This document shows positions 6,301 through 33,257 of a stretch of 64,000 nucleotides of DNA, piece by piece. This DNA comes from Balanoglossus misakiensis (Eukaryota; Animalia; Hemichordata). Numbering within the stretch: the first letter of the stretch is position 1; every line of letters starts with the position of its first letter. Made by a program: the position numbers and the translations under genes. The DNA lies in assembly GCA_040954595.2 (NCBI GenBank), contig CM082590.2:4402001-4466000 (forward strand). Direction: 5' to 3'. A model generated the notes under the pieces. The model saw only the letters and a list, made by a program, of their open reading frames with translations, ran no database searches and was not told the origin of the DNA.

Positions 6301-6639
6301 GTCAAAACTATAAAACGAAGACTAAGTTTAAGGTAGAGGTCTACTCAAAATCGAAAATACAATCTAATAGAGAGAAAACTACACACCACTGATAAGTTAA
6401 ACTTTTATTTTTCTAGAAGCGTCTGAAAGCTTTAATGATGTCAAATATCCAACATTTATGAAAATTGCGCGAAATATGATGAAATCGCGCGCATCATGCA
6501 AGAACTATGACGTCATTCCACACTACGGCAGCCAGAGAAACAAAAAAAATTACAATATTAATAAAATTGCCTACCTACCTACCCTTTTTTGAAAACCATG
6601 TAATCGGAACACATATATTATTTTTCTGTTGCCTAAGAG

Positions 6640-6860
6640 TGGAAGAGTGATGTTCAAACTTCTTCGACACGGTGATGATTCTTGCTGCTGTGTTTTGTGT
6701 GCGCTGAAGTAGATTTATTGCAGATTGAGGAAGACCAAACAATAACGAATTGCAGTAATCAAGTTTGGTTTAAAGAACTGTATGAATTAATTTACAACAA
6801 TCATTAAAGACAGGTACTGAAATATTGATCCGATGCGTCGAAGATGAAAATAAAAACACA
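6640..6860 (-). mobile_element. L2/CR1-group LINE ORF2 fragment (region C-terminal to RT)
   Basis: paralogue of 15285-15505; encodes HLRRIGSIFQYL...KLDYCNSL.FGLPQ...QNTAARIIT. Confidence 0.75.
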
Positions 6861-6882
6861 AGTTGTAGGGCCTACTCTCTTG

Positions 6883-6991
6883 GAGTGAGGAGAAACCCGG
6901 CCAAACCCCACCCCTAACCCTAACCTTAACCCTAGGAGTGAGGAGGAACCCAAACCCTAACCCTAGGAGTGAGGAGAAACCCTAACCCTAA
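6883..6991 (+). repeat. telomere-like composite minisatellite, array 1
   Basis: units of GAGTGAGGAGAAA + (CCCTAA/CCCTAG)n. Confidence 0.9.
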
Positions 6992-9270
6992 TTAGGGTCC
7001 AAGTGGTCCTCCATGTAACCCAAATTCAAAGGTCTACCAAAAAAAAACCATTATGTTTTTTATAGGTTATAAACACTGTAAATGATAGATTTCAATGAAA
7101 GTTATTGATTTTAAGTTATTGGAGCTGTAACCCTTGTATATTTCAGGGTGATAAAATCTCAGGTAACATAGGGGACCAGTTTATCAGTTAAGGTACCTTA
7201 AGTGAATTTGTTAAAAGCCTTTTGGTTGACCCTAATAAGTAATCCAGGTGTTATTCAATTGTATAAGTGTCCCCTTCTACCCCCCTGCAGGAAAAAAGTG
7301 AAAAAATGTTGGTCGAAAAAATGCTGTTAAATTCTTATACTTACTGTGAACTGGCTGCATCAGAAAAAAAAAACGAATCTTCACAAGCATGATTTTTGGC
7401 ATAAAAATAGTTATTTCACCGAATTTTGAAAAACCTTTGGCACGTTTGTAATATTTTGGATGCTGATTTATTTTATATTAATTTTTTTTAAATTCATCAA
7501 GATTTAGGAATATTATTCAACAAACCTGTTTTGGGGACCACTTTGATGTTACCTGTGTATTGTCTATGGGCGAAAATGCGAACTTTCTAAATTGCTGCAA
7601 TATTTCATTGTTTTTAAACATACAGCTGTCAAACTCACATATGTATTAAAGTTGACACAACAGCTTTCAAAACTAGTTTCAGTTTTAAAATTGAAGGTCG
7701 CTAAGTGTGTGAGTTGTAGGTTACAAAATACATACCAAAGGTGAATTTTAAAATGTTCATGCTTGTTTTGTTCTGAGCACACCAGTTTGTTTATTTCTTA
7801 GGCTTTCACTTTGATTGTTCAATATGTTGATTTTTTTGATATACACTTTGCTTTTTTAAGATTATTTTTTTTATTTTAAGCATTTCAAAGATGAAACTTT
7901 GGGTAGACCATTATGAGATGTTAAAGAATATTGAAAAGTTTACACTATTAAAATTGGACACCATTAAATATTTCAAATAATGCTGCAAATTAGACTGAAA
8001 TAACTCCCATTGACTTAACATGTATAAAAACAAAGGAATACGTTTTTGGGGACACTTGGAGATTTTTCTATGTTGAAAACTCGGCGAAAAACGGGTTGTT
8101 TTATGCTTATTCTAACGAATATCTTACAATCCAATATATGTTTTTTAAGCTCAGATTATGGGCTCTCTAACCGCTGAAACCGTTTTTCAAAAATCGTAGA
8201 ATTGAAACCAGAGAGCCAACGATTACAATTTGTTACGATCGTATTTTGCACTCACTTCCGGGTTTCGGCCAATTGCAGACAAATACTTTTTATAAAAGGC
8301 TTCGTCTTATGCTTATTCTAACAATTATCTAACAATCCAATATATGGTTTTAAAGCTTAGAATCTTGGCTCTCTAACCGCTGAAACCGTTTTTCAAAAAT
8401 CGTAGAATTGAAACCAGAGAGCCAACGATTACAATTTGTTACGATCGTATTTTGCACTCACTTCCGGGTTTCGGCCAATTGCAGACAAATACTTTTTATA
8501 AAAGGCTTCGTTTTATGCTTATTCTAACAATTATCTAACAATCCAATATATGGTTTTAAAGCTTACAATTTTTTACCTTTTTTTCAAAAATCGTAGAATT
8601 GAAATCAGGGAGCCAACGATTAAAATTTGTTATGGTCTTTTTTCGTGTGTAGGGTTAGGTACTTAGGGATTTTGGCGACAGGCAAAATCCTCAGTTTGTT
8701 TAGGTTAAGTTTACATCACTTCTGACTCACTTAGAGTGGGCCGATCTTTAAGATGTAACGTGTTTTGAAATCGTCAATTACTGCTCTAAAACATATTACA
8801 GACCTGAGTTGCTCTCTTTAAGAATAAATTAATATGTTTGCTAAAAATAAAGTGATGTTTAAGTGATTCTTTTGTTTTTATGCATGTTAAAGAATAGGAC
8901 AAATTATAATAGTTGTGACCCTATCCTGATTTGTACAATTTAAGTAGCTTGAGTACTGTTTTTTCAGGATGTATTGACATTTGAATTCTCTATGCTATAG
9001 TACATTTTTTTAAATGTAGACAAGAAGTTATAAAACCGTAATTATGAAAATAATGTCAGTGCCCCATAGGCTTTACACTGTAGACAACAGGGTGTCATAG
9101 GTTAAAATTTTGGAAAGTAAGAAAACATGTTGTTTTATGCTTGTTATTTTCAGAATGTGTTAAGAACATGATGGGACACTCCATACATTTTTTTAAAGTT
9201 GTTACATGTACAGCAATGCCAGTAGCTATTGGGTCAAAATAGGTAATTCATATATCTCACAATGACATTC
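6992..9270. mobile_element. element B copy 1: left end of a YR-element subfamily, truncated
   Basis: starts TTAGGGTCCAAGTGGTCCTCCATGTAACC directly after CCCTAA; co-linear with 24629-26479 + 33803-34125; contains a ~206-bp tandem repeat at ~8100-8640. Confidence 0.7.
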
Positions 9271-14324: not shown

Positions 14325-15015
14325 TTAATTAAGGTCATTTTTCATCTATAAGTAAATAGTTACCTTTAATTACCTGTTATTTATCAATGAAATATTATGC
14401 ACACATTTCAATCTACTCGGGAAGTGACTAATTATAACTTCACTCATATTCTGTTGAAATGACAATGATGTATGTAAATTGGAAATTTATCTTGATAGAA
14501 TAATTAATAATTAAATAGCATACTATTAATAAAATGAATGTCGTTTTATATATCATGAACATCTTTTTTAATCTACATAAATTGAATGCTATTAAAAAAA
14601 ATAATATAAATTAAGCTGCACTCCCCTAAATATAAAATGGTTTACCCCTAAGTCTAATCTGATGTATAGTGTGGTAAAATTTGTGGCAATAAAATGGCAA
14701 CCACTTTAGTGTTCAGTGAAAACAGTGTGGGACATATTTATCCACCTGACCAGTATTAGAAACATATTTTTTTTAAGAAATCGTTTTAAGGATGTACGTG
14801 CAGAACATAAACCGGAAAACTGCGCACACTCGTCTTATTCCCATAGGATTACATTTGATAATTGCTAGAAAACAAACTTCTACTCTTGTCATTTTCATGA
14901 AATTTCACACAAAGCTCAGTCCAGTAAATATAAATTCATTGGTCAAATAAAATATAGGGGTCACCGCGCTCAATTTTGAGATAAATTGCGCTTAAAAATT
15001 TGCATTCATTAATAA

Positions 15016-15609
15016 AGAGAAAACTACACGCCACTGATAAGTTAAACTGTTATTTTTCTAGAAGCGTCCGAAAGCTTTAATGATGTCAAATATACAAAAT
15101 TTATAAAAATTGTGTGAAATATGATGAAATCGTGCGCATCATGCAAGAACTATGATGTCATTCCACACTACGGCAGCCAGAGAAACAAAAAAATTCACAA
15201 TATTAATAAAATTGCCTACCTACCTACCCTTTTTTGAAAACCATGTAATCGGAACACATATATTATTTTTATGTTGCCTAAGACCGAAAGAGTGATGTTC
15301 AAACTTCTTCGACACGGTGATGATCCTTGCTGCTGTGTTTTGTGAGTGCTGAAGAAGATTTGTTGCAGATTGAGGAAGACCGAACATTAACGAATTGCAG
15401 TAATCAAGTTTGGTTGAAAGAACTGCATGAATTAAAGTACAACAATCATTAGAAGACAGGTACTGACGTATTGATCTGATGCGTCGAAGATGAAAAAACA
15501 CAAGTTGTAGGGCCTACTCTCTTGAGTGAGGAGAAACCCTAACCCTAACCCTAGCCCTAACCCTAACAGTGAGGAGAAACCCTAACCCTAACCCTAGCCC
15601 TAACCCTAA
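15016..15609. repeat. duplicated block copy 2, ending in telomere-like array 2 (~15524-15609)
   Basis: co-linear with 6371-6991. Confidence 0.9.
15285..15505 (-). mobile_element. L2/CR1-group LINE ORF2 fragment
   Basis: ORF 15220..15501: FFHLRRIRSIRQYL...LIHAVLSTKLDYCNSLMFGLP...LQHSQNTAARIIT, the conserved post-RT segment of L2/Crack-type LINEs. Confidence 0.85.
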
Positions 15610-17457
15610 TTAGGGTCCAACGGGCATTAGGGGACCTGAGATTTCGGGCTCTAACCCTACTGCCTTGCCAATGTTTTTTTTACCCCTCCTTTTGATACAA
15701 TGTAGGTAAACATATAAACAACAACAACAACAAATATCAACAAAAACAAGTCAACCCTTCCATGTTTTTTTAAGGTCGAGTCCCCCAATGCCCAACTTAT
15801 GTCTTGTTTGGCCAAAAAAAGAGGGTTAGAGAATATTGTTTGGATTTATTTTGTTATCTTTTAGGTTGTTGTTATTGATTTTGGTCCCCTGTCTAACCCC
15901 AGCCTTTAAAAAAACCATTTTTAGAAAGGCCAAAAAAATGCCTTGGTGGGTATATGCAAGTTGCTCCAGACGGCAAGTCCAAATTGTGCATGGACGGATT
16001 TCTTGGTAGGTACTTTTAAATTTTACATAAACCATAACAAACTATATATTTTCCGAAAGGTCTCGGCGAGTTCTATAACATACTAAAATTTAACAAACTT
16101 TGAACTTGACCTTGAAAAGTTATTGCGGAAAAACCTATTGAAAAAAACATACTTTATAGGGTACGCGGTGTCACCCCCTTAATATAGTTGGAAACCACTG
16201 AAAATTACAGGATAGATTGATAATAAGTTGTTATAATGTGGTGTGGTGAAAAAATTTTGAAATTCGAAGGTCAAGGTCAACTTCGCCATTGCTTATAGTT
16301 GTTGGTTTACCTATGTCGGATTTCATTATCCTTTGACCTTTGACCTTGATATTTGGTACACAAGTAGAGTGTCTATCTATAAACTCTTGACAAAAGTTAC
16401 ATTGAAATATTTTAACATAAAAGCACTTTTTTGACCAAAAAGCTAACTTCTGTAAATTAGCTGTAAATTAGCTTTTTTTTAATATACACTTTGCTTTTTT
16501 AAGATTATTTTTTTATTTTAGGCATTTCAAGGATGAAACTTTCCAGAAACCATCATGAGATGTTCTAGAATATAAAAAAGTTTACACTTTTGAGATTGGA
16601 CGCCATTAAGTATTCCAAATGTTGTTACAAAATAGACTGAAATAATGCCCATAGACTTAACATGTATAAAAACAAAAGAATACATTTTTTGGACACTTTG
16701 TAATTTTTTTTTAATGTATTTGTTTTGTCTTTTATATATGATATAGAGTAGTAATTGCTCTATTCAAAACACTATTTGGTTTAAAGATCTGATTTCATTT
16801 AGTCTTTTATTTTAATTTATTCTATTGTAATTATGCATGTTCAAGTATAGGGAAAATATTCAGTTTTGAGGTTAAGTTTGCATTACTTTTAACACACTTA
16901 GGGTTGGCCGATCTTCAAACTGTAACTGGTTTTGAGACCACCAATAACTGCTCTAAAACATATTGAAGACCGGATGTAAAATCATTAAGAATAAATTTAT
17001 AGGTGGGGCCACAATAAAGGGATGTAAAAGTAATTATTTCGCTTTAATTGCATGTTAAAGAATAGGAAAAAATGATAACATTAGAGAACCTATCATAAAA
17101 TGTAAAATAAAGGAGCTTAAGAGCTGATTTTTCCGGGAATGATAGACATTTAAATTCTCTATTCTGGGGTACCTTAATATCTAAGAAATGTAGACAAGAA
17201 GTTATAAAAATATAATTATGAAACAAAATGGTTGTGCCCCATAGGCTTTACACTGTAGAAAACAGGGTGTCATAGGTAAAAAATTAGGAAAGTAAGAAAA
17301 CATGTTGTTTAAAGCTTGTAATTTTTCAGTGATTGTTAAGAACTTGTTGGGATACTACCTACATTTTTTAAAGTTGTTACATGTACAGCAATGCCAGTAA
17401 CTATGAATACAAACTAGGTAATTCATAAACCTCATATAGAAATTTTCGCTATATTGC

Positions 17458-19385
17458 TACTTTACTTTTGGCACACCTTTTAATTTATTCTTAAAGATTT
17501 CACATCGGGTCTTCAATATGTTTTAGAGTAATAGTTAGCCATCTCAAAACAGGTTACACTTTAAAGATTGACCCACTATAAGTGTTACAGTAGTGTTGCA
17601 AACATTAGCTAAAACTTACATTTTCCCCTATACCTTAACATAGAAAACATCACTTTACTTTTGGCACACCTATTAATTTATTCTTAAAGATTTCACATCG
17701 GGTCTTCAATATGTTTTAGAGTAATAGTTGGAGATCTCAAAACAGTTTACACTTGAAAGATAGACCCACTCCAAGTGTTACAGTATTATTGCAAACATTA
17801 CCTAGAAACAGTGATTCACCCTATACTTTAACATGATTGTAGACATAAGATCCACTGTAACATCACTTTACTTTTGCCACACCTTTTAATTTATTCTTAA
17901 AGATTTCACATTGGGTCTTCAATATGTTTTAGAGGAATAGTTGGCAATCTCAAAACAGGTTACACTTTAAAGATGGACCCACTCTAAGTGTTACAGTAGT
18001 GTTGCAAACATTGGCTAAAACTTACATATTTTCTGTGTGAAATTTATGAATTACCTAGTTTGTATCAATAGTTTATGGCATTACAGTACAGGTAACAACT
18101 TAAAAATAATGTAGGTAGTATCCCAGCATGTTCTTAACAGTCTCTGAAAATTACAAGCTTTAAACAACATGTTTTCATACTTTACTAATTTTTTACCTAT
18201 GACACCCTGTTTTCTACAGTGTTAATCCTATGGGGCACAAACATATTGTTTCATAATTATATTTTTTATAACTTCCTGTTTGAATTTGAAAAACAACATT
18301 TCCCCTACAGCATAGAGAATTAAAAGGTTTATCTATTCTGAAAAAAATAGAACTTAAGCTTCTTTTGAAAAGATTTTACAGCAATTTCTAAACTTCAGTG
18401 ATTCACCCTATACTTTAACATGCATGTAGACATAAGATCCACTGTAACATCACTTTACTTTTGCCACACCTGTTTATTTATTATTAAAGATTTCACATTG
18501 GGTCTTCAATATGTTTTAGAGGAATAGTTGGAGATCTCAAAACAGTTTACACTTTAAAGATATACCCACTCCAAGTGTTACAGTAGTGTTGCAAACATTG
18601 GCTAAAACTTACATTTTCCCCTATACCTTAACATAGAAAACATCACTTTACTTTTGGCACACCTATTAATTTATTCTTAAAGATTTCACATCGGGTCTTC
18701 AATATGTTTTAGAGTGATAGTTGGAGATCTCAAAACAGTTTACACTTTAAAGATAGACCCACTCCAAGTGTTACAGTATTATTGCAAACATTACCTAGAA
18801 ACAGTGATTCACCCTATACTTTAACATGCATGTAGACATAAGATCCACTGTAACATCACTTTACTTTTGCCACACCTGTTTATTTATTATTAAAGATTTC
18901 AAATTGGGTCTTCAATATGTTTTAGAGGAATAGTTGGCAATTTCAAAACAGGTTACACTTTAAAGATGGACCCACTCCAAGTGTTACAGTAGTGTTGCAA
19001 ACATTGGCTCAAACTTACATATTTTCTGTGTGAAATTTATGAATTACCTAGTTTGTATCAATAGTTTATGGCATTATAGTACGGGTAACAACTTAAAAAA
19101 ATGTAGGTAGTATCCCATCATGTTCTTAACAGTCTCTGAAAATTACAAGCATTAAACAACATGTTTTCGTACTTTCCTAATTTTTTACCTATGACACCCT
19201 TTTTTCTACAGTGTTAACCCAATGGGGCACAAACATTTTGTTTCATAATTATATTTTTTATAACTTCTTGTTTGAATTTGAAAAACAACAATTCCCCTAC
19301 AGCATAGAGAATAAAAAGGTTTATCAATTCTGAAAAAATTAGAACTTAAGCTTCTTTTGAAAAGATTTTACAGCAATTTCTAAAC
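17458..19385. repeat. internal modular repeats of element A: ~200-bp units within a ~990-bp tandem duplication
   Basis: actttacttttg..cacacc...aagatttcaca..gggtcttcaatatgttttagag units at ~17458, 17652, 17863, 18451, 18645, 18857 (offset ~993). Confidence 0.85.
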
Positions 19386-20444
19386 TTGGCCCATAGGAAT
19401 ACATGCATTAAAATAAGCTAGAAGATAGGCAATTTTTAACTTGGCGACATTTTTTCAAAAAGGTTTAGTTTTATGCTTATTGAAACAAATATCTTACAAT
19501 CCGATACATGGTTTTGAAGCTTAGATTCTGCTCTCTCTAACCGCTGAAACCGTTTTTCAAGAATCGTAAGAATGAAATCAGAGAGCCAACGATTAGGATT
19601 AGTTACGATCTTAATTTGCACACACTTCTGGGTTTCGGCTAATTGTACGCACATACTTTTTAAAATAGGCTTCGTTTATTGCTTATTCTAATAAATATCT
19701 AACAATCCAATATATGGTTTTAAAGCTAAGAATCTTGGCTTTCTAACCGCTGAAATCGTTTTTTAAAAATCGTAGAAAATGAAATCAGAGAGCCGTCGAT
19801 TACGATTTGTAATGGTTGTATTAGGGTTAGGGTTTTACAACCATTTTCGGGTTTCGGCGACAGGCTGACGAATATGCTTTTTTTAAGAGTTTGCTTTAAT
19901 TATTTCACGAATCCAACATATCATGAGAAAGAGCAGATCTTGTGCTTCCCAACGATATACATGATTTTCTTATTTGTTTTTATTTTCAATACATAATTCA
20001 TTGATTTTGTAGCACACTGTCAAGCACGATGCTTGCTATTGCCATTTAAAATACGACTCCCTAACTTACTCTTAATCTTACTTCCCACGAAACCTCGGTT
20101 TTCTCGTCGACGAAAACATTAAATCTACGTTATAATGCATTAGAGATACAGTTTAAACCGCTAGCAAAAGGTACTCTATTTACTTAAGAGTCCATCTAAG
20201 GTTTTTCCCGAGTTTGTGCGCTACTCCAGTCACTCATTTGCTCAAAGTATTTCGTCCGTCAACCGCTATTCAAGGCACTCATTCAAGGCACTCATTTCTT
20301 AAAGGTCATCATTGATTATTTTGTTCTTAGGTTCGTCAAGAGTAAACCGCTATTCAAGGCACTCTTTTTCTGTAAGGTCACCATTAATTATAAGGTTCTT
20401 TCGTCCGTCAAGAGTAAACCGCTATTCAAGGCACTCTATTCACT

Positions 20445-22644
20445 ATGTCTAAGAGAGTATTTGGTAGTTCCTATTGTGATATTTCTGATTCTGGTTCACA
20501 CTTGTCAGGTGTTGAAGCTCTTCCAGTTGAATCATCTGACACAGAAAGCATAGAAATTCCACCAGCTCGCAGTGCAGGTAGGCCTAAGCGACTCTTTCCG
20601 GCTAAATATTTCTATGGGTCTAATAAGAAAAAGCAGAGGAAATCAAAACAGCCAAATAAACAGGATTTGAGGAAAAAAATTGACTGTCCAGTAGATGACT
20701 GCTCTGCCAAAGTGTTCAAGCTTAAAAGGCACCTAATGCAGATGCATGATGTCCCTGAAATGAGGGCGTTATTGATGACATCAAAGCACGCAACAACAAA
20801 AAGAATGGAAAGAAGGGCAAATCGAGACAGACCTTACCATCAATGTCCCCTCGATTGTGGTGCTACGGTTAAAAGACTGGACAAGCACCTGATGAATACT
20901 CACCGGTACGAGAGGGGGGATCCTCGTCTGGCGAATATTTTAGCCGACGCAAAAAAAAAAATCTTACAAAAAGGCCGCGTTAGAAAGGAAGGCTCGTAAA
21001 CAATCAACCGTATCAAACACATCTAAACAAAAAGAGCACAGGCCCAGAAGCCGAACAAGACCGGACCAGCAGGGCATAACGGAAAAAAGAAACCGCTCTC
21101 CCAGAAGCCCCCAGCAGGCCCCAGTTAGGGAAATAATCCCTGTAGTCAGAGAATCATCTGACGAGGAGTACATAGTACCACCTAAACGTTACCGGCGTAT
21201 CATTCCCCCCGCCGATAGTGATGAGGGTGAGGTCGAAGATGTGAGCGAAATATCAAATTCGTTTGAGGCCCACCTTTTGACTGCAGATGGAGGGCGCCGA
21301 TCACAAACTTCGGCCAAACAGAATAGGTCTCAGGTAGGCCGCCTTTTCCAGTCATTGGGGTCCCTTGAAGCAGTGGGAGATAGACAAAAAGTTCTTTAAA
21401 AAAGTTCATTGAAAACACACCCAATCTTAAAGCAAGTTCCGTAAGGAGCTATCTATTTTCATTTGGTATGATTTATAACTTTTGTTCATGCAGCACCCCA
21501 CCTCTCCTCCCACGCAAAGCAGATCTGATGCACAGATTAGTTTTAAAATGGGCTACTAGCTACAGGAAAGAGGTAAATCAAAGGTCTGCCGAATTCCAAT
21601 CCGAAGTGGTGCACCAGCTGATAACACCTGCCAAATTTAGATCCTTTGAAAATAGCAAAACGGCAAGAGATGCCTACAAAATTATTGCATCTGCTGGGAA
21701 GAAAACCAAAGTTAGCGAACAGGAATATAAAACTGCTAATGGGTATATACTGGTCTGCATAGCCCTGGATTCTGCCTAAAGATCTGGAGCGCTGCGCAAT
21801 GTAACAATCCGCGACTTCAATAAAGCGGTTGAAACCGACAACGGTCATGTTGTTTTAGTCGCAGAACATAAAACGGCCAGCTCCCATGGCGTGGCACGTT
21901 TGGTATTTACCAGGCCTCTATATAGAATAACATCACTTATGATTAGAGACTTGTTACCTAAAACACCAGGTGGAAATAAACCCACAAGGAGACTTTTCTC
22001 AAGTTTTTGTGGAGAGCAGCTAAGTAGCTCTACTTTCGCCAAATTCTTGGCTGATTCCTGGCGGAAATCAGGAGTTTCAAAAAAGAAACTGACAAGTACT
22101 ATTTGTCGAAAGAGTATGGTCACCATGGTTTTAGACACCCAGCCCGAGCTATCGAAGAAATTGGCTAGCCATATGAGCCACAGGGAGACGACCCAGGCAT
22201 CCTATTATAGGATTGCTGGAGCTGTGCAGGAAAGTTCTAATGTCATGCAGGAAACAAGAAAAATTAGAGATGGATTAACATCAAAAAGTAATGCAAAAGC
22301 TGAAATTGGTCAAACAGAACCAAAGGAGCAGGAGAAAGTAGAGCCAATGGACACTGGGGAGGATGATACAGCTGTAGATCCTCTGGAAATTGTGGATTCT
22401 GAATCCATACATGCACCCTCCACTACCGAGCAGTCGCACGTCTTCTCTGGAAGACGAAGCTTTTCAATAGACCAAGTTGAACTGATAGAAGGAAGATTTA
22501 GAAAAAAACATCTTGGAAAAATGTGTCACTGCTGCCCAGGTTAGGCAAGTAATGGAGGAAGACCCTGATTTTAAGGGCAGGTTCCATGGATATACGGTGA
22601 AGCAAATTGTAGACAGAATCCGGTGTAGTTTCAGAAAAAGATAA
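20445..22644 (+). pseudogene. zinc-finger + tyrosine recombinase (lambda-integrase fold), ~730 aa when reconstructed; disrupted
   Basis: joined ORFs give CPVDDC..LKRHLMQMH and CPLDC..LDKHLMNTH fingers; FEAHLLTADGG..AKQNRSQV; VRSYLFS; LDSA*RSGALRNVT (catalytic R); EHKT (K); TICRKS (R); LASHMSH..TQASYY (H, Y). Frameshifts at homopolymers ~20955, ~21398, ~22505 and TAA at 21777-21779. Confidence 0.85.
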
Positions 22645-23100
22645 GAGTAAATGGCTCTTCAAGGCACTCTTTTCCCGGTGTAGTTTAAGAAAAAAGTAAA
22701 GTTAGTTGTATACCAGAAAGCAAAAAAAAAAAAAAAGAACACTGGCATGACACATGCAAAAATACATTAACAAACATACTGAACACACATTCATATGCAC
22801 CAAACATACTTACACACACTGACATTACACATGCATGCACAAACATGTTCTTTGTTACTGTTTTTTGTTTTGTTATTAATGTTTAAAAAGGAAGACAAGA
22901 AGACTGTTGAAGATAAGAAGAAAAAGAAGAAGAAAAAGAATGTTATTTGTTGTAAAAAAAGGCACAGAGAAATAAAATAAGTGTGTCCAATTGGTGTCTC
23001 AAATGCTATGTCTGATATATTAAAAATAGAGACATGCATTTGATATCCCAGTTGAAACACACAAAACCTCAGCTACGGAGAGTACAAGCGCATATTGGAA

Positions 23101-23390
23101 CCCTCAAAAGGTAGACATTCAAGAAGGAATAGGTAAAAAACAACAACAATAAGGTGAGTAAAATGTGTGCTTTATTAGTGTAAACATTGCTTTATTTAAT
23201 CCCTCAAAAGGTTGAAATTCAAGAAGGGAGAGGCAAAGAACAACAGCAATAAGGTAAGTAAAATGTTTGCTTTATTTGTGTAAAACATTGCTTTATTTTA
23301 TCCCTCAAAAGGTGGAAATACAAGAAGGAAGATGTAAAGAACAACAGCAAATGGGTGAGTTAAATGTGTGTTTTATTATTGTAAATATTG
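23101..23390 (+). repeat. ~100-bp tandem repeat x3
   Basis: ccctcaaaaggt..a.tcaagaagg...caacaGCaa.a.ggt.agt units at ~23101, 23200, 23302. Confidence 0.8.
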
Positions 23391-23882
23391 TTTGAATAAC
23401 AATGGTAAATGAAGTTAATTATGTGTGACCTTGAAACTAACATTGCATTCAAAGACATTCAAACACATTTGAAAACTGTTAACACTTAAAATCCTAAAGA
23501 ATTTTATGTTTTTCAATGTTAAATACAAGACGAGGTGTGAAATAAACAATTTTTAAAAAAGGTCATTTTCAACAAATTATATGTTTTGTTTGATAGCCTA
23601 TAAAAAAATAAGTTGAGTGTAGTTGAGTATGGTTTTTTATTTATTGTAAAAGGAGAAGATTTGCTCTCTAAAACTGTTTTCAGAATGAAAATCGGAGATC
23701 ATTAAGTAGTCAAAAAAGTATGGAAAATAAATATTTTCAAATAAAGTTTTTTGTATCAAAAAAAAAAAATAAACTAAAGTTAACTAGCTAAAGGTATGTA
23801 TTAATGAAAGATGTATGAATTGAAACCAAATAAGGGACTAACCCTCTTGACCTTGACCTAACCACGCCTAAAAAAATAATTC

Positions 23883-24040
23883 GGGTCCCCTAATGCCCAA
23901 CTTATGACGTAAGTTGGGCATTGTGAGACTTGATGTTGGGCATTCGGGGACTTGAAGTTGGGCATTCGGGGACTTGAAGTTGGGCATTAGGGGACTTAGG
24001 TCCCTCAATGCCCAACTTCAGGTCCCCGAATGCCCACCGG
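23883..24040. repeat. subterminal 22-bp motif cluster of element A, in both orientations
   Basis: GTTGGGCATTCGGGGACTTGAA x4 plus three inverted GTCCCC.AATGCCCA copies. Confidence 0.85.
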
Positions 24041-24047
24041 ACCCTAA

Positions 24048-24628
24048 CCCTAGCAGTGAGGAGAAACCCTAACCCTAGCCCTAAAACTAACCCTAGGAGT
24101 GGGAGAAACCCAAACCCTAACCCTAGCCCTAACCCTAGGAGTAGGGAGAAACCCTAGCCCTAACCCTAGCAGTGATGAGGAACCCTAACCCTAACCCTAG
24201 CCCTAACCCTAGCAGTGAGGAGAAACACTAACCCTAGCCCTAAAACTAACCCTAGGAGTGGGAGAAACCCAAACCCTAACCCTAGCCCTAGCCCTAGCAG
24301 TGAGGAGAAACCCTAACCCTAGCCCTAAATCTAACCCTAGGAGTGGGAGAAACCCAAACCCTAACCCTAGCCCTAACCCTAGGAGTGGGGAGAAACCCTA
24401 GCCCTAACCCTAGCAGTGATGAGGAACCCAAACCCTAACCCTAGCCCTAACCCTAGGAGTGGGGAGAAACCCTAGCCCTAACCCTAGCAGTGAGGAGAAA
24501 CACTAACCCTAGCCCTAAAACTAACCCTAGGAGTGGGAGAAACCCAAACCCTAACCCTAGCCCTAACCCTAGGAGTGGGGAGAAACCCTAGCCCAAACCC
24601 TAGCAGTGAGGAGAAACCCTCACCCTAA
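24048..24628 (+). repeat. telomere-like composite minisatellite, array 3 (~580 bp)
   Basis: (CCCTAA/CCCTAG)2-4 punctuated by (C/G)AGTG(A)GGAGAAA. Confidence 0.95.
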
Positions 24629-26479
24629 TTAGAGTCAAAGTGGTCCTCCATGTAACCCGAATTCAAAGGTCTACCAAAAAAATCATTATGTTTTTCTAAG
24701 GTTATAAACACTGTAAGTGATAGATTACAATAAAAATTATTTATTTTAAGTTATTGGAGCTCTAACCCTTGTATATTTCAGGGTGAAAACAACTCAGGTA
24801 ACATAGAGGACCAGTTTATCGGTTAAGGTACCATAACGGAATTGGTTAAAAGCATTTTGGTTGACCCTAATAAGTAATCCAGGTGTTATTCAATTGTATA
24901 AGTGTCCCCTTCTACCCCCCTGCAGGAAAACAAAGTGAAAAAATGTTGGTCCAAAAAATGCAGTAAAATTCTTATACTTACTGTGAACTGGCTGCATCAG
25001 AAAAAAACGAAATCTTCACAAGCATGATTTTTGGCATAAAAATCGTTATTTCACCGAATTTTGAAAAACCTTTGGCACGTTTGTAATATTTTTGATGCTA
25101 ATTTTTTTTATACCAAAATTTTAAAAATTCATCAAGATTTAGGAAAATTATTCAAATAACCAGTGTTGGGGACCGCTTTGATGTTACCTGTGTATTGTCC
25201 ATGGGCGAAAATGCGACTTTTTTAAATTGTTGCAATTTCATTGTTATTAAACATACAGCTGTCAAACTCACATATTTATTAAAGTTGACATAACAGATTT
25301 CAAAACTAGTTTCAGTTTTAAAATCGAAGGTCGCTAATGTGAGTTGTAGGTTACAAAAAACATACCAAAGGTAAATTTTAAAATTTTCATGCTTGTTTTG
25401 TTCGGAGCACTCCAGTTTGTTTATTTCTTAAGCTTTCACTTTGATTGTTCAATATGTTGTAGATATGAAAATGTTCTTTTAAAAACAGGTTACACTTTTG
25501 AAATCGGTGGATGGGAAGTTGACCAATTAATGTCATGTATGTGGTGCACCCGAAATTAACTGTATCCTGATTTTTTTTTTAAATATACACTTTGCTTTGT
25601 TAAGATTATTTTTTTATTTTATGCATTTCAAAGATGAAACTTTTGGTAAACCATTATGAGATGTTATAGAATATTGAAAAGTTTACACTATTAAGATTGG
25701 ACACCATTAATTATTTCAAATAATGCTGCAAAATAGACTGAAATAACTCCCATTGACTTAACATGTATAAAAACAAAAGAATAAGTTTTTGGGGACACTT
25801 GGAGATTTGTTTTTATGTTGAAAACTCGGCGAAAAATGGTTTGTTTTATGCTTATTCTAACGAATATCTTACAATCCAATATATGGTTTTTAAGCTCAGA
25901 TTCTGGGCTCTCGAATCCTGAAAACCGTTTTCCAAAAATCATACAAATAAAATCAGAGAGCCAACGATTACAATTTGTTACGATCGTATTTTGCACTCAC
26001 TTCCGGGTTTCGGCCAATTGCAGACAAATACTTTTTATAAAAGGCTTTGTTTTATGCTTATTCTAACAGTTATCTAACAATCCAATATATGGTTTTAAAG
26101 CTTAGAATCTTGGCTCTCTAACCACTGAAACCGTTTTTCAAAAATCGTAGAATCGAAATCAGGGAGCCAACGATTATAATTTGTTATGGTCTTTTTTCGT
26201 GTGTAGGGTTAGGTACTTAGGGATTTGGGCGACAGGCAAAATCCTCAGTTTTTTTTAGGTTAAGTTTACATCACTTCTGACTCACTTAGAGTGGGCCGAT
26301 CTTTAAGGTGTAACGTGTTTTGAAATCGTCAATTGCTGCTCTAAAACATATTAAAGACCCGAGTTGGTCTCTTTTAGAATAAATTAATAGGTTTGCTACA
26401 AAATAAAGTGATGTTTAAGTGATTCTTTTGTTTTTATGCATGTTAAAGAATAGGATAAATTATAATATTTGTGACCCTA

Positions 26480-27007
26480 TGTTACGATCTGTATAAAGGT
26501 CAAATACGATTTCAAGGGTTAATTAATCCAGAGCTCGGAAATGTCAATGTTTGATAGTATTTGATTTTATGTATTTGAAGTAGATAGGGAGAGCGGGTGT
26601 TTAACTGACTGCTCTGGTTGTCAATCATCACCGAACTGACTTTGTTATATAACACTTTATGTAAATTGGTACGTATAGAGTTGACTGATGCCCAATGAAA
26701 TTGTAACACATTGTATTTGTGATATTTTACATTATTAACCACGCCTTGAGAAAAGTAATTATAAGAGAACTTTGTTTCCAAAGTTAGGAGAATAATCTAA
26801 CGGGAGATGGGAGTACCTCAGGCTACTGAGCTCGTTCCCTTCCTCATGTACTTTACTGGGCGTATTTGATGTACTATATAATTCCGGACAATAAATGAAC
26901 GTGAATCAGATACGTGTCTCCGTGGATCACTGTTCTCGTCAGAGCCCGATACCTCATCGCTACAGATTCCCCGATGCATGAACAATCATGAGAAACCAGC
27001 CGTAATA
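26480..27007 (+). repeat. 5' LTR
   Basis: TGTTACG...CGTAATA; AATAAA at ~26889. Confidence 0.95.
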
Positions 27008-27009
27008 CA

Positions 27010-27026
27010 TGGTGGAGATACGTGGG
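27010..27026 (+). promoter_or_regulatory. primer-binding site, probably tRNA-Ala
   Basis: TGGTGGAGAT is complementary to the ...ATCTCCACCA 3' end of animal tRNA-Ala; 2 nt after the LTR. Confidence 0.7.
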
Positions 27027-27084
27027 TAGACGAAACAAATCCATCGGAGACAGAAACGGCGACGTCCAGCGGAAAGATTACAGC

Positions 27085-30000
27085 ATGGATCGCGAGATGC
27101 TAAACGACATGAACAGTCAATTATCGGAAATACGACAGGTTACACTCAGAGCTGGAGGTCAGGTAGGCCCAGGTTTCTTTTCGGCTACAGAGACTGAGAA
27201 TGCACACCGATGGTGGAAAAAATATATAGACTTTGCTGACTTTAAGCAATGGTCAGACGAGAAACGGCTTAAAGGAATCGGACTATATTTGACTGGTGAA
27301 GCGGAGCGATGGTTCTACAGACTGTCTGCTGAAAAGAAAAATGACTTGACGACACTGCAAAATGTCTTCCTCGCTCGTTTTGATAAGTGCGGTCCGATGT
27401 GGCTGTATGACGAGAAACTGTTTCGCCTGAAGCAACTGCCGGACCAGACTGTTGAACAATATGCGGAATTAATATGCGAAAAAGCAGAAAAAGCGAAAAA
27501 GACTGATGAGGAACTACTATCTTTCTTCATGAACGGACTGAGACCGGACATACTAAAGTTCGTAGCGGGAATGTCACCTAAGGACTTCGAAACAGCGTAC
27601 AAACATGCTCGAACAGCAGAGGTCGTGGCAGGATTACCAGAGACAGACGAGCCAGAAGCGGGTCTTTTACAACAAATCTCGACACGGATTGACGACATGA
27701 AACAAGAAGATGAAGAAATGAAGACCAAATCAAGCGCGGCAGATCATCGAGGACGATCGACAAAAAGAGAGAAGAAATCGCCGAATTACAGAGCAAGAGA
27801 ACGAACAATAGACAATAAGGTAAAGAGGAACAGATATAATTTTACTGGACACTCTGCCCAACGTTTTCCTCGACATAGTCAATTTAATTCCCGTGCATGT
27901 TTTAATTGTGGGCGTTACGATCATATAGCTAGAAATTGTTCAAAATATGGGTTCTCTGGAAATGTTTCGAAGCCTAGTCGGAAATTTTATTTTGATGGAT
28001 CGTCCGACAGGAGGTCATGTACAGGTATAAATGCACTCGGGAAAGAGGGTGCCTATAATGTTAAAGATGGTGTAAACTTTGTTAACAAAGATGGGTGTGC
28101 TTTTCATGAGAATGTTATTCCAATTTCAATATGTCATGAAAAAGTGACGTCATTAATTGATACTGGAGCACATATTACTGTAGCTCCTATTCGGTTGTTA
28201 GAGCTAGTACCCGCTCTAAAGGATTATCCGATGTTCAAGTCCAGATATAATTGTGTACATACAGCACACGAAGACAAATTGAAGGTAATTGGATTTATGA
28301 AAATACCTGCTTTTATTGGGAATAAGCGTGTATTACTGTATGTTAATTTAGTTGAGTCTCTTCAGCATAATCTGATTTTGGGACTTGATTTTATGAAGCG
28401 TTATAGAGCTGTTATTGATTTCAAGGGTAATATTTTAAGATTACAATCAGACGTACCGTTAAGAACAAATGTTGATGTTAACATTTCACCTGGAAGTGAA
28501 ATGGTTATTCCAGTGAAAGTACCGTATAAATATCTTACTGGAGTTTTAGGTTGTATTTGTGATAAACGAACACGCTTAACCCCGGGTATTTTGGTAGCTA
28601 AGGGGTTGGCCTATTCGAATAAGAATTTTCTTCCCATGCGAGTTGTAAACACTTTGGATACTGTGGTCAAAATTAAGAAAAACAGTGTTGTTGGAATGTT
28701 TTCGCCTTTGCCCCGTAATAGTGAAATAGTCCCACTCGATAATACTGCCGTTAATTGTGTCTCACCTCAAGGGCCCCGTACACAGAAAGAGACGGATTAT
28801 TTGATGGGTCAATTGAAATTTAATGAATTAGAGATAACTAAGGCACAGCGTAAACAGCTTAGAGATGTTTTACTGCACAATATGGAAGCTTTTGTTGATT
28901 CTAGTGGTCGTTTAGGCAACTGTGATGTAATCAAACATACAATACGATTACAAGAGGGTGCTGCCCCGTTCCGTCGCCCACCTTACCGAGTAACGCCTGA
29001 GAAAAGGCGTGAACTTGAGCGACAAGTTGATCAGCTGTTAGAACAAAATATTATCGAGCCGTCCACTTCACCGTTTGCTAGTCCAGTAGTTTTAGTCAAA
29101 AAGCCTGATGGTTCGTGGCGTTTTTGCACAGATTTCCGTCATTTGAATAATATTACAGTGCCTGATTCGTTTCCCTTACCTAGAACTGACGAATCTCTTG
29201 AAATGTTAGGCAAGAATAAGCCTCAGTATTTTTCGACGCTTGATTTACAGTCAGGATTTTTTCAATTGGAATTAGATGAAGAGAGCAGACCAAAAACAGC
29301 TTTTGTCACACATCAAGGTTTATATCAATACAGGAGACTTGCCCAGGGGTTGCGAAATAGTCCCAGTTGTTTTCAGCGTACTATGCAACACGTGTTACGC
29401 AATATTATGTGGCAATATGTGTTATGTTATATCGATGATATTATTATATTTAGCAGCTCTTTTGAGGAGCATCTTCAACACATTGATACTGTCCTAACCA
29501 GGTTACGTCAAGCTGGATTGAAATTAAAGCCCAGCAAATGTCAATTTATGAGAAAGAGTGTTAAATTTTTGGGTCATATTATCAGTAAGAATGGAATTGC
29601 GGTTGACGAGAGTAAAGTAACAGCTGTTAAAGAATATCCCCGTCCTCATACTGTCACACAGCTGAAATCATTTTTGGGGTTGGCCAATTATTATAGAAAG
29701 TTTATAAAGAATTTCTCGATCATTGCAAGGCCTCTGCATAAATTGTTGGGAAAGGACACGAAATTTGAATGGGATGATCGATGCGAACATGCATTTGAGA
29801 AATTAAAACATGTCCTGTGTCAAGCACCAATTCTAGGGTATCCTGATATGAATGAAAATTTCACAATTTATACCGATAGTTCCACTCATGCCCTGGGGTT
29901 TGTTTTAGCTCAACGACAGAATGGTGTTGAACGAGTGATTTTATATGGGGGTCGAAGTTTAAACTGTCACGAAAGAAATTACTCAATTACAGAATTGGAA

Positions 30001-32253
30001 GCTTTGGCCGTCATTCATGCTATCCGACAATGTGATCACTATGTACGGAGCAACCATGTCACTATAGTGACTGATCACTCCAATCTGACTTACATGTTTA
30101 AACAGAAAATACCAAGGGGGCGTATTGGCCGTTGGATAATGACCATGCAGCAGTACGATTACGAAATTATCTATAGACCTGGTAAGAAACATATGAATGC
30201 TGACGGGTTGTCAAGGAGACCATATCAACAATGTGAGGGGTACAAGTCTGACGTCACTGATTTAGAGCATGCGCCTGAAATGAATTACAAGCCTAACAGT
30301 CAGCCAATGGTAGATAAGTGTGTAAACACTGAGCCCATAAACTCACCTTGTATAAATAATATACATACAGGGCAACAAACCGAACCTGAGGTTCATAATT
30401 CTGCTAATAGTGAGGACTCATCTGGGTATGGGATTTTACTTAACAGTTCTAACGACACTTCTAACACTGACGTGGAGGAAAATGCTTCCAACACTGAAGT
30501 GGATAAAACATTCGACAGTGAGGTGCAATCACGAATGAAGGGAGAACAGAGAAAGGATAATTATTTGAGTAAATTTCTTAATTATTTAGAGAATGATGAG
30601 TTACCAACTGATCAAAAGTTAGCTCGTAAATTTGTTAGTATGGCTCCAAATTATGACATTGTTGACGGGGTTTTGTATCATTTTTGGAAACCCACGGGGA
30701 AATCAGCTAGTAAATTAGATTGTGTTAGACAGGTTGTGATACCTAAGTCCTTAAGAAATTATGTTCTGCGGTGGGCTCATGATTGTGTTTTAGCGGGACA
30801 TTTGGGATACACTAAAACGTTGGGAGTTTTAAGACAGAGGTATTTTTGGGAAAGGATGCCCCGGGATGTTAATATGTACGTAAAGACATGCGCACATTGT
30901 CACACACGAAAGAGAACCACACCCCCTACTCATGCTAAGTTGTTACCTATTCCAGTATCAGGACCCTGGGACCGACTGGGTATGGATATTGTGGGACCCC
31001 TCCCTAGAACTTATGATGGTCATAAATACATCTTAGTACTTACTGATTACTTTACTAAATTTCCACTAGCATATCCATTACGTAATGCACGAGCTGAGAC
31101 AGTCGCTAAGATCTTGTTTGATGAAGTCATCGCTACTTATGGCAGTCCAAGAGTTTTGATGAGTGATCAGGGATCGAATTTTTTATCCCAAGTAGTTCGT
31201 GAAACTTGCAAATTTTTCAACATCCAGAGGAAAGTTTCGACCCCTTATCGTCCACAGACTAATGGCCTTACAGAGCGTTTCAATGGTTGCCTAGTCGACA
31301 TGCTGTCCATGTTTGTCGATAGTAAACAGAAAGATTGGGATCGGTACCTAAGTTCAGTGCTCTTCGCTTATAGAGTTAGCCCTCAAGAGTCCAGTGGGTT
31401 CAGTCCTTATTATCTGTTATATGGTCGGCATCCCACATTGCCCATGGATGTTGAATTCCAGCCAGTTGAGGGGAGGACGAGAAATATAGATACACACCTT
31501 AAACATTTAGCTGCTAAAAGGGAGATAGCTCATAAAATCGCCAAAGAGAATATAGATCGATATCAACAGAATATGAAGGACCGTTATGATCAAAATATCC
31601 AAAGGTCACAAAATCTAAAAGTGGGGGATCCTGTATATTTATACACACCATCTGTTAAACCAGGAGTTAATAAGAAATTCGTACATAAGTGGACAGGTCC
31701 TTACATTATTTCTGAGAAGGTGGGTCCTGTTAATTACAAGTTGCGTTTCATAAATAGCACCAGGAATTATCGTAAGGTCATTCATGTGAATAGACTTAAA
31801 AGAGCTTATTTGCGCCCCTCTGAGTTTGACTCATCCTCATCTGATGAGTCGTGTGAAGAAAACGATGTCCCAGAAACCACAAATTATGAAAATGGGACCG
31901 AAATATGTCAAAGTCCAGAAGCAGAAACATATGCAGAATCAGAAAATGGTTCTGATCAAATTGAGGGATTGAGAGATTTGTCGTCAAGGACAAATCCCAG
32001 TGCTTTCGATGAAACTGACAACAATGGAAATTGTCAGACTAATGTTTCTGAGCCATTTTACGATATAGACAATGTGTTAAAGGGTCGATATAGAAATGGG
32101 AAATTACAGTATTTGGTTAAGTGGAAGAATTATTCAAACAAACATAATACGTGGGAGGATGAAGACAATTTGAACGAAACTGCGAAAGAGTATTTGATAA
32201 GAAATCCTGTAAAGATACAAGGGAAACAGGTTATAGCACATTTGCACATTTAA
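27085..32253 (+). CDS. single-frame Gag-Pol polyprotein (Gag/CCHC, protease, RT, RNase H, integrase, chromodomain)
   Basis: CFNCGRYDHIARNC knuckle; LIDTGA; YIDD; YTDSS...ELEALA...TDH RNase H; H-H-C-C and D,D35E (MDIVGP, SDQGSNF, NGLTER); YLVKWKNY...NTWE; first ATG at 27085 (the track's GTG at 27022 lies in the PBS). Confidence 0.97.
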   Translation: MDREMLNDMNSQLSEIRQVTLRAGGQVGPGFFSATETENAHRWWKKYIDFADFKQWSDEKRLKGIGLYLTGEAERWFYRLSAEKKNDLTTLQNVFLARFDKCGPMWLYDEKLFRLKQLPDQTVEQYAELICEKAEKAKKTDEELLSFFMNGLRPDILKFVAGMSPKDFETAYKHARTAEVVAGLPETDEPEAGLLQQISTRIDDMKQEDEEMKTKSSAADHRGRSTKREKKSPNYRARERTIDNKVKRNRYNFTGHSAQRFPRHSQFNSRACFNCGRYDHIARNCSKYGFSGNVSKPSRKFYFDGSSDRRSCTGINALGKEGAYNVKDGVNFVNKDGCAFHENVIPISICHEKVTSLIDTGAHITVAPIRLLELVPALKDYPMFKSRYNCVHTAHEDKLKVIGFMKIPAFIGNKRVLLYVNLVESLQHNLILGLDFMKRYRAVIDFKGNILRLQSDVPLRTNVDVNISPGSEMVIPVKVPYKYLTGVLGCICDKRTRLTPGILVAKGLAYSNKNFLPMRVVNTLDTVVKIKKNSVVGMFSPLPRNSEIVPLDNTAVNCVSPQGPRTQKETDYLMGQLKFNELEITKAQRKQLRDVLLHNMEAFVDSSGRLGNCDVIKHTIRLQEGAAPFRRPPYRVTPEKRRELERQVDQLLEQNIIEPSTSPFASPVVLVKKPDGSWRFCTDFRHLNNITVPDSFPLPRTDESLEMLGKNKPQYFSTLDLQSGFFQLELDEESRPKTAFVTHQGLYQYRRLAQGLRNSPSCFQRTMQHVLRNIMWQYVLCYIDDIIIFSSSFEEHLQHIDTVLTRLRQAGLKLKPSKCQFMRKSVKFLGHIISKNGIAVDESKVTAVKEYPRPHTVTQLKSFLGLANYYRKFIKNFSIIARPLHKLLGKDTKFEWDDRCEHAFEKLKHVLCQAPILGYPDMNENFTIYTDSSTHALGFVLAQRQNGVERVILYGGRSLNCHERNYSITELEALAVIHAIRQCDHYVRSNHVTIVTDHSNLTYMFKQKIPRGRIGRWIMTMQQYDYEIIYRPGKKHMNADGLSRRPYQQCEGYKSDVTDLEHAPEMNYKPNSQPMVDKCVNTEPINSPCINNIHTGQQTEPEVHNSANSEDSSGYGILLNSSNDTSNTDVEENASNTEVDKTFDSEVQSRMKGEQRKDNYLSKFLNYLENDELPTDQKLARKFVSMAPNYDIVDGVLYHFWKPTGKSASKLDCVRQVVIPKSLRNYVLRWAHDCVLAGHLGYTKTLGVLRQRYFWERMPRDVNMYVKTCAHCHTRKRTTPPTHAKLLPIPVSGPWDRLGMDIVGPLPRTYDGHKYILVLTDYFTKFPLAYPLRNARAETVAKILFDEVIATYGSPRVLMSDQGSNFLSQVVRETCKFFNIQRKVSTPYRPQTNGLTERFNGCLVDMLSMFVDSKQKDWDRYLSSVLFAYRVSPQESSGFSPYYLLYGRHPTLPMDVEFQPVEGRTRNIDTHLKHLAAKREIAHKIAKENIDRYQQNMKDRYDQNIQRSQNLKVGDPVYLYTPSVKPGVNKKFVHKWTGPYIISEKVGPVNYKLRFINSTRNYRKVIHVNRLKRAYLRPSEFDSSSSDESCEENDVPETTNYENGTEICQSPEAETYAESENGSDQIEGLRDLSSRTNPSAFDETDNNGNCQTNVSEPFYDIDNVLKGRYRNGKLQYLVKWKNYSNKHNTWEDEDNLNETAKEYLIRNPVKIQGKQVIAHLHI

Positions 32254-33257
32254 ATCTATGGACAGAAAAATATATGCGTAACAGAAAAAAAAAAACTGAA
32301 AAGGGCGACACGTGGTTGAGTGAATTGAAAATGTGAATATGACTGAGAGGTATGAGTGTTGGCCGGCCTGTATGAGTGAGTGTACGATTGGCGTGTCCCT
32401 TGATTCGTTTAATGTTACGTAAGTTGTCGAATGACATTTTATTATCCGTTGTTTGCTGAGTTTAGTTGTAAGAGCTGTGCAACCTGGTTCCCGTGTCACT
32501 CTGTTGAAATGTGTTGATGTATTTAAGTTGTAAAGAAATTACCAGTGAAGTTTGAAGTTGCAGAGATTTTAACACTGGAGAAAAATGTTGTGAGTTGAAT
32601 TTGCCTTTCGTTTGATGACCTAAAATAGATGGTCCAATTTGTGTAAATAGCCCCTTTTAATGGCTATATGTTTGTACAAAGAAACCAAAGAAAATCCCAT
32701 TTTCGAATGAAGAAAATGCCATTTTCGAAGTTGTAAAGAGTGGATTTTTGACAAAACGCTAAGATGTTTCAGTTTTAAAAATTTTAAAGGTTATTGAATT
32801 TGCCCGACATGACGTAACTCGAGAATAAGGAATGTCGGATGATCGTTCGATGTAAAAGAATGCAAGAGTGTTTCTTTTGAGTCAATAAGACAACAGATAT
32901 TCAGATTGTGTTCAATGATGGATACAACGTTTTATGGGTTTACAGAAGGAGTTGTGATTTTATTGGTTATATTAGTAGGTGGATATGTGTGCGAAAGTTT
33001 TATGAGCACATACTATTTTAAGTTTATATGTACTTTTATTCTGTAGTAATTTTTGTATTGTAATTTTATAATTTTTCAAGACGATCACTTCATAGACATG
33101 ACTCGATTTTTTTACTTCAATTTTGTTATATATATTGTACTCTTACATTTCAAAATCATACGGTACATCTTAATATATTCTTGGGGTGGAATTGAACGAT
33201 TACCCTTGGTGTACTGCTCTTTAAGAGATTTGTGTCCAATGCGGGACGCATTGGTTT

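What the first reader, a model, noticed from the sequence alone, without database searches (positions are those of the whole stretch)
15610..24047. TIR-bounded tyrosine-recombinase transposon whose ends are telomere repeats and which sits in a telomere-like array
Seen: 8438-bp unit with 30-bp TIRs (26/30) beginning TTAGGG and ending CCCTAA, flanked on both sides by CCCTAA/CCCTAG minisatellite, no conventional TSD, and a ZnF-YR gene as the only coding content (no DDE transposase, RT or DNA polymerase). Established: eukaryotic YR DNA transposons (Cryptons) typically have short terminal direct repeats rather than TSDs. I recall some Repbase Crypton groups being called target-specific, so novelty needs checking. 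Inference: a site-specific element that recombines into telomeric-type repeats through ACCCTAA (present at 15603-15609 and 24041-24047). This is the best candidate for an undescribed system here.
Basis: partly seen in the sequence, partly recalled or inferred. Interest (0 to 1): 0.85.

Follow-up and report, generated by a model that had tools for sequence, protein, structure and literature searches.

The report
Transposon homing to telomere-like repeats
This is a broken 8.4-kb jumping gene with inverted ends, lodged in a short telomere-like repeat inside another repeat rather than at a chromosome tip, and its DNA cut-and-rejoin enzyme likely belongs to the same family that shrimp viruses are thought to use to insert into telomeres.

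Summary
The anatomy is real: 8,438 bp, TIRs 26/30, no TSD, a 7-bp ACCCTAA shared by flank and right end, and one broken zinc-finger tyrosine-recombinase (YR) gene. The 'telomere' framing is overstated. The array is a 31-43-bp minisatellite with no run of three pure hexamers. It belongs to another dispersed repeat that also occurs in the window without the element.

Target preference gains independent support. A sister element has the same 11-bp terminus right after CCCTAA. A diverged copy in sequencing-run contigs also ends beside a CCCTAA tract.

The YR belongs to a large unnamed animal family (974 clusters). By eye it matches, motif by motif, protein 022p of the telomere-inserting nimavirus Nimav-1_LVa (no score computed). 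Microsatellite-targeting CryptonV is already known and may be this family; I could not test that. The scan earlier noted a similar element inside true telomeres of another genome (not checked here).

Verdict: a new variant of a known kind; interest 0.55.

The parts
15610..24047 (+). Element A, 8,438 bp; the right boundary is ambiguous by 7 bp (ACCCTAA)
   Evidence: absent from the paralogous locus
15610..15639 (+). Left TIR: 11-bp terminus TTAGGGTCCAA, then the family motif at +12
15780..15794 (-). Inverted copy of the family motif at +170 (likely protein-binding site; inferred)
23885..24036 (.). Right subterminal cluster: 7 copies of the 15-bp motif in both orientations (22-bp tandem plus hairpin)
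24018..24047 (-). Right TIR (26/30)
15603..15609 (+). ACCCTAA in the left flank, identical to 24041-24047; inferred crossover region
20445..22644 (+). Broken gene: 2x C2H2, SAM-like core-binding part, YR catalytic domain, helical tail. Pieces 20445-20999, 20944-21399, 21384-21779, 21780-22544, 22489-22644; three frameshifts at poly-A runs and one in-frame stop
   Evidence: the last piece matches the family tail only weakly (E 0.15)
16473..19898 (.). Non-coding internal modules, with a 993-bp tandem duplication (95.6%) and long inverted repeats; 3,087 nt have homologs in B/B-prime
23093..23393 (+). 101-bp tandem repeat downstream of the gene
15525..15609 (+). Left part of the target minisatellite
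24048..24628 (+). Right part of the target minisatellite
15010..15524 (+). Repeat X, which carries the minisatellite; deeper than A in run contigs
6365..6991 (+). Paralogous X plus a short array without element A (element-free locus)
6992..9269 (+). Sister element B, left end and modules; same 11-bp terminus, different motif at +12 and +170; no right end found
24629..40443 (+). B-prime, paralog of B (92.8-95.3%), interrupted by a Gypsy element; its extent beyond 34127 is inferred from shared modules; no right terminus found
38053..40142 (-). Second broken ZnF-YR gene of the same family
   Evidence: (tblastx E 1e-25)
26480..33799 (+). Intact chromodomain Gypsy LTR element nested in B-prime; not part of A

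Best explanation
Element A is a broken, multi-copy 8.4-kb unit with inverted ends and one zinc-finger recombinase gene, and it is likely a tyrosine-recombinase DNA transposon that inserts by preference into CCCTAA tracts wherever they lie. Inferred mechanism: the enzyme binds the repeated subterminal motifs and the TTAGGGTCC termini and excises the unit as a circle. The predicted circle junction is the palindrome GGACCCTAA-TTAGGGTCC. It would re-integrate by strand exchange within the ACCCTAA shared with the target, leaving no TSD. Here the target was a telomere-like minisatellite of a dispersed repeat (X), already next to the sister element B. The enzyme likely belongs to the family of the telomere-associated nimaviral integrases. 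Shown: boundaries, TIRs, element-free paralog, junction sequences, family-level YR identity. Inferred: circle, crossover site, binding sites, link to the nimaviral family.
For: Element-free paralog: X-array-B occurs twice, only one copy with A (89-95% identity). Four ORF pieces match one family profile in order (E 1e-15, 3e-8, 2e-29, 1e-52). The catalytic motifs R..G, HKT....G, RK and H...T....Y are present in A and in 125-134 of 150 top homologs. The model of homolog P0004 matches Xer/Cre/lambda integrases (Foldseek best E 9.4e-6; Z 14.7, rmsd 5.1, 296 aligned to XerH). Independent junctions: B starts TTAGGGTCCAA right after CCCTAA (7 pattern matches against 0.27 expected, three of them these junctions). 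B has A's end layout (+12, +170) with an unrelated motif. A second copy with 5-6 differences in 45-54 nt ends at the same terminus, followed by CCCT, CCCTAA and non-array DNA. Nimav-1_LVa protein 022p shows the same two C2H2 fingers, catalytic motifs with equal H-to-Y spacing and helical tail (by eye 9 of the 12 invariant columns). That virus inserts in (TAACC)n without an obvious TSD.
Against: Few junctions were seen: A, B (one event, duplicated) and one further copy. Summed contig depth at the right junction (177 and 107) is far below the interior (755 and 442), so most flanks are unseen. No circle or head-to-tail junction appeared. None of 80 metagenome loci of relatives has the CCCTAATTAGGG junction. 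None of the 39 with 800 nt or more on both sides shows TTAGGG-type TIRs; these loci were found with patterns of another subclade and many are duplicates. The link to 022p has no computed score, 3 of 12 invariant columns were not matched by eye, and no named nimaviral protein appeared. B has no right end in the window. The arrays of the two loci differ in unit number, so the element-free locus does not fix the crossover.
Confidence: 0.72

Rival explanations
1. Self-stacking: X plus array is itself the right end of a third element of this clan, and members pile up on each other's CCCTAA ends rather than on host repeats. Same enzyme, different biological target.
For: B sits at the very last CCCTAA of the array at both loci; X is a deep dispersed repeat; array units resemble subterminal repeats.
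Against: X-array lacks B's motif and the GGACCCTAA terminus, so it is not B's own end. The second copy abuts a CCCTAA tract followed by non-array DNA.
Confidence: 0.1
2. A DDE-mobilised TIR element (Zator-like GG..CC ends with a TWA TSD, or Kolobok-like) that carries the YR as passenger or resolvase.
For: TIRs and subterminal repeats are typical of DDE elements (established knowledge); MarCry and Tec combine YR with DDE (PMC3212892 passages).
Against: No DDE ORF among 27 other ORFs and no TSD. A TWA reading needs an unexplained extra TTA at the left end of both A and B. A control TIR element in the window has TTAA at both ends, unlike A.
Confidence: 0.08
3. The element integrates by host homologous recombination through short telomere-like tracts carried at its ends (as for HHV-6), or inserts at random and is retained only in repeats.
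For: Both right junctions share GGACCCTAACCCT, so the end may carry more than one hexamer; PMC7016691 raises the same alternative for Nimav-1_LVa.
Against: Shared identity is only 7 bp, too short for homologous recombination (established knowledge); the family keeps its catalytic residues.
Confidence: 0.07
4. An assembly artefact joined unrelated repeats.
For: Repeat-rich region; all three frameshifts lie in homopolymers.
Against: A run contig spans the right junction with no differences (it may be the assembly's own sample). The end layout is shared with B, and a second copy has the same terminus.
Confidence: 0.03

Closest known systems
Telomere-associated YRs of endogenous nimaviruses (Kawato et al. 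2023, PMC10871703: abstract, passages, sections 15, 26, 35; Nimav-1_LVa, Bao et al. 2020, PMC7016691: passages and supplement passages)
   Same: C2H2 + SAM-like + YR architecture; motif-by-motif likeness of protein 022p (by eye; that 022p is Kawato's YR is my inference); target shares the 5-mer CCTAA; no obvious TSD.
   Different: A is an 8.4-kb single-gene element with TIRs and no viral genes, against viruses of about 280-580 kb with tentative CAG/ACC termini. Its target here is a degenerate internal minisatellite, and its gene reads as one run of frames whereas g022 has 5 predicted exons.
CryptonV (Kapitonov & Jurka 2012, Repbase Reports 12:2034; seen only as cited in PMC8869645)
   Same: YR-only animal DNA transposons, some inserted specifically in microsatellites, described from cnidarians; this family has many cnidarian members.
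   Different: No CryptonV sequence or end structure was available. Whether it has TIRs or targets CCCTAA is unknown to me.
CryptonA/F/I/S (PMC3212892 passages; PMC13465315 passages)
   Same: YR as the only enzyme, short terminal identity with the target, proposed circular intermediate.
   Different: Described as lacking TIRs. CryptonA is tied to DUF3504 and CryptonF to GCR1_C, neither seen in the 25 of 35 Pfam families listed for 42 homologs. Animal CryptonA/I have no C-terminal domain.
TATE of Leishmania (PMC6681497 passages)
   Same: YR element inserted at a fixed position in telomeric hexamers.
   Different: A retrotransposon with gag and RT/RH; A has neither.
Starships (Captain, DUF3435)
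   Same: YR-mobilised, short direct repeats, asymmetric TIRs; atlas feature likeness 0.89-0.91 for homologs (lead only).
   Different: Fungal, giant, cargo-bearing; no DUF3435 hit listed.

Membership tests
Tyrosine recombinase superfamily | Catalytic R-K-(H)xxR-H-Y set and integrase fold | tested here: met
   R, K, R, H, Y motifs in A; the first His position is T/S in 131 of 150 homologs; fold shown on homolog P0004
Nimaviral telomere-associated YR family | C2H2 + SAM-like + YR domain order | tested here: met
   against the description
Nimaviral telomere-associated YR family | Significant sequence or tree grouping with majaniviral YRs | tested here: inconclusive
   By-eye motif match to 022p only; no score; no named nimaviral hit
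Endogenous nimavirus | Nimaviral core genes, genome of hundreds of kb | tested here: not met
   8.4 kb, one gene
CryptonV | YR sequence groups with Repbase CryptonV | not testable with these tools
   No Repbase or Dfam access; one search found 3 papers with the name; passages read in two of them give no sequence
CryptonV | Insertion into microsatellite-type targets | tested here: met
   Three independent insertions beside CCCTAA; small sample
Crypton (A/F/I/S) | YR as the only enzyme, no RT or DDE | tested here: met
Crypton (A/F/I/S) | No TIRs | tested here: not met
   TIR 26/30 against PMC3212892
Crypton (A/F/I/S) | Short direct repeat shared with the target | tested here: met
   7-bp ACCCTAA
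TATE/DIRS/Ngaro retrotransposons | Reverse transcriptase and gag | tested here: not met
DDE TIR transposons (Zator, Kolobok) | DDE transposase and TSD | tested here: not met
   autonomous relatives elsewhere in the genome were not examined
Telomere-targeting element | Copies inside true terminal (TTAGGG)n arrays | not testable with these tools
   No genome held; the laying tool skips repeats and drops human-like contigs

The most novel reading that the evidence does not exclude
A widespread animal clan of compact TIR-bounded transposons uses the nimavirus-type recombinase to home to TTAGG(G) repeats, true telomeres included. It keeps a fixed end layout (11-bp terminus, motif at +12, inverted motif at +170) while swapping the motif between families, is distinct from CryptonV, and is the pool from which crustacean DNA viruses took their telomere integrase.
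Probability: 0.25. Interest if true: 0.75.

Novelty: new variant of a known kind. Interest (0 to 1): 0.55.

Why it matters
PMC10871703 reports that the telomere-associated nimaviral YRs are not close to DIRS, Enterprise or Cryptons; its tree used CryA, F, I and S alignments, not CryptonV. A free single-gene element with this enzyme and defined ends names a candidate donor family. It also gives a small substrate for testing how a eukaryotic YR element excises and picks its target; PMC13565253 says Crypton transposition has not been shown experimentally. A repeat-targeting, TSD-free animal recombinase could be of use for safe-harbour insertion. This copy is broken and the idea of microsatellite-specific YR transposons is not new, which caps the score.

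Tried and rejected
No whole genome was held, so the genome-wide end census was not possible.

Sequence searches with no result: a word-index search with the catalytic ORF found 0 of 1,190 candidates, and P0002 found only itself. Viral contigs gave no relative with three queries. The 20-nt junction pattern is absent from viral and prokaryote contigs. Rfam gave 0 hits. No RNA holder was listed, which says nothing on expression. A PDB sequence search gave only XerA at E 0.19.

Metagenome loci: 7 of 80 have a tract of 2 or more telomere-like units, none as a paired flank or TIR.

The idea that the helical tail is a TRF-like telomere reader stays inconclusive. It folds as a three-helix bundle; top Z is 5.2, TRF1 scores Z 4.5 tied with homeodomains and FF domains, and Foldseek has no hit at E<=0.001.

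The tree is a quick one only. A groups with P0002, P0003, P0006 and P0028 at SH-aLRT 87; 155 rows with a detectable catalytic stretch were kept, the rest dropped.

Rejected: 'the array is A's own end', because the array exists without A; 'the array is a telomere'; 'X-array is B's right end'.

Literature: (listings; passages read as cited) found no paper describing a free TIR element with this YR. Kojima's 2020 review was not held, and Repbase was not searchable. Kawato's supplements gave no recombinase or integrase match outside the review file.
Full report
Observation. The unit 15610-24047 has 30-nt inverted arms with 26 identities. Without the terminal hexamer they match at 20 of 24, which 3 of 2,000,000 random window pairs reach. 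The inner part of the arm is a 15-bp motif found nine times, twice at the left end and seven times at the right, in both orientations. The left flank and the right end share exactly ACCCTAA, and no direct duplication of 2-12 bp flanks the unit. The flanking array is a minisatellite of 31-43-bp units, 23-56% CCCTAA, and the window has no run of three pure hexamers. It is therefore telomere-like but not telomere DNA.

An element-free paralog. Self-comparison shows 6365-7002 matching 15010-15620 (89%) and 6903-7829 matching 24540-25459 (91%), continuing to 9269. So the order X, array, B occurs twice, and only the second copy holds A inside the array. This fixes A as a discrete mobile unit and shows that the array belongs to X. 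In contigs of two runs of one sample X is deeper than A's left end (about 500-23,000 against 50-2,100; the tool warns this is no copy number). A's interior differs from the dominant contig at 9 of 431 nt, which fits a family of similar copies. The two arrays differ in unit number, so the exact crossover cannot be read from the paralog.

A sister family at the same kind of site. B (6992) and B-prime (24629) begin right after the last CCCTAA with the same terminus as A: TTAGGGTCCAA in B, two changes in B-prime. The junction pattern has 7 matches against 0.27 expected: the three junctions, their three palindromic reverse reads and one other site. A and B both place a family motif at +12 and its inverted copy at +170 (+168 in B-prime), although the motifs are unrelated. 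A shares 3,087 nt of internal modules with B/B-prime at about 73-87%. A second broken YR gene of the same family lies at 38053-40142 on the minus strand; that it belongs to B-prime is inferred. No right end of B was found.

A third insertion. Laying run contigs on 23998-24066 gave one contig identical across this junction, possibly the assembly's source. It also gave a diverged copy, seen in both runs, with 5-6 differences. That copy ends at the same terminus and continues CCCT, CCCTAA and then non-array DNA. No head-to-tail or circle junction was listed. Junction depth is far below interior depth, so most flanks are unseen; the tool drops human-like contigs, which could include pure telomere flanks (inference).

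The enzyme. Four ORF pieces match one profile in order; three frameshifts at poly-A runs and one stop break the gene. The family has 974 clusters at E<=0.001. The best hit is a Ptychodera flava protein (36%, E 3e-43), with others from Hydractinia, Clytia, Desmophyllum, Paramuricea and an eel. The host is likely a marine invertebrate, perhaps an acorn worm (inference). Pfam gives Phage_integrase in 25 of 42 homologs and SAM-like domains in 9-10; DUF3504 and DUF3435 are absent from the 25 of 35 families shown. A homolog's model matches Xer, Cre and lambda integrases. Catalytic motifs are kept in 125-134 of 150 homologs and in A. The helical tail is a three-helix bundle of uncertain kind.

Link to known systems. 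PMC8869645 cites CryptonV as YR transposons inserted in microsatellites; no sequence was available. PMC10871703 describes telomere-associated nimaviral YRs with C2H2 and SAM-like domains, unrelated to the Cryptons it tested. The supplement of PMC7016691 prints protein 022p with two C2H2 fingers, the R..G, HKT....G, F....G, RK and H...T....Y motifs and a similar tail, in the order seen in A. By eye 9 of the 12 invariant columns match and 3 do not; no score was computed, and the authors did not call it a recombinase. That virus inserts in (TAACC)n without an obvious TSD; its repeat and A's target share CCTAA. TATE also targets telomeric hexamers but encodes RT. Cryptons A/F/I/S are described without TIRs.

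Results against. None of 80 metagenome loci of relatives (80 of 128 confirmed were kept) shows the junction or, in the 39 with enough flank, TTAGGG-type TIRs. They were found with another subclade's patterns, many are duplicates, and elements may exceed the contigs, so CCCTAA targeting may be limited to A's subclade. No named nimaviral protein surfaced.

Mechanism and verdict. Most likely (0.72) A is a YR DNA transposon that leaves as a circle and re-enters by strand exchange in ACCCTAA; the circle, the binding sites and the crossover are inferred. It works like a target-specific Crypton and like the nimaviral integrase system. It fails the no-TIR feature of CryptonA/F/I/S. CryptonV membership is untested, and from the description alone I put it near even. 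Two earlier scan notes (e1-7880006, e1-9855138) describe a 15.7-kb YR element inside true telomeres of another genome; they are leads, not support. The listed paper searches found no description of a free TIR element with this enzyme, but Repbase and Kojima's 2020 review could not be seen. New variant of a known kind, interest 0.55.

Noticed in passing
window 26480-33799 (+): Intact Gypsy element with one 1,753-aa ORF including a chromodomain and LTRs identical at 529 of 529 nt: a very recent insertion into B-prime.
   Followed up: partly
window 38468-38963: A 134-bp tandem amplification (3.7 copies) inside the second YR gene repeats the stretch around the first catalytic arginine.
   Followed up: partly
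window 33799-35490 and 40126-40443: Foldback modules; 34103-34411 and 40126-40443 are inverted at 90%, which could have flipped the segment holding the second YR gene.
   Followed up: no
window 13585-14329 and 53843-54584: Two copies (95%) of a 745-bp TIR element with TTAA at both ends; Kolobok-like by recall.
   Followed up: partly
window about 1575-1720 (-): A Gly/Tyr-rich exon-like stretch resembling the hnRNP A1 C-terminal region (recalled); no RRM exons found by motif search. It suggests a host gene nearby.
   Followed up: partly
window 56026-57943 (+): Fragment of another LTR retroelement with a zinc knuckle and an integrase core.
   Followed up: no
window 35785-37494: 124-bp tandem array, 13.8 copies at 94%, downstream of the second YR gene, in the same position as A's 101-bp repeat.
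   Followed up: no
window 15215-15281 and 6570-6636 (-), 2245-2320 (+): X contains the end of another repeat that reads TTAGGC outward-in, also seen near 2248, so X is composite.
   Followed up: no
window 6992-7235: B's left end has a near-perfect inverted copy of its terminus at +235, so this 244-bp piece could move as a miniature element.
   Followed up: no
L059:4146-4468: An insertion of about 320 bp holding a CCCTAA run interrupts a YR-family locus relative to L026.
   Followed up: no
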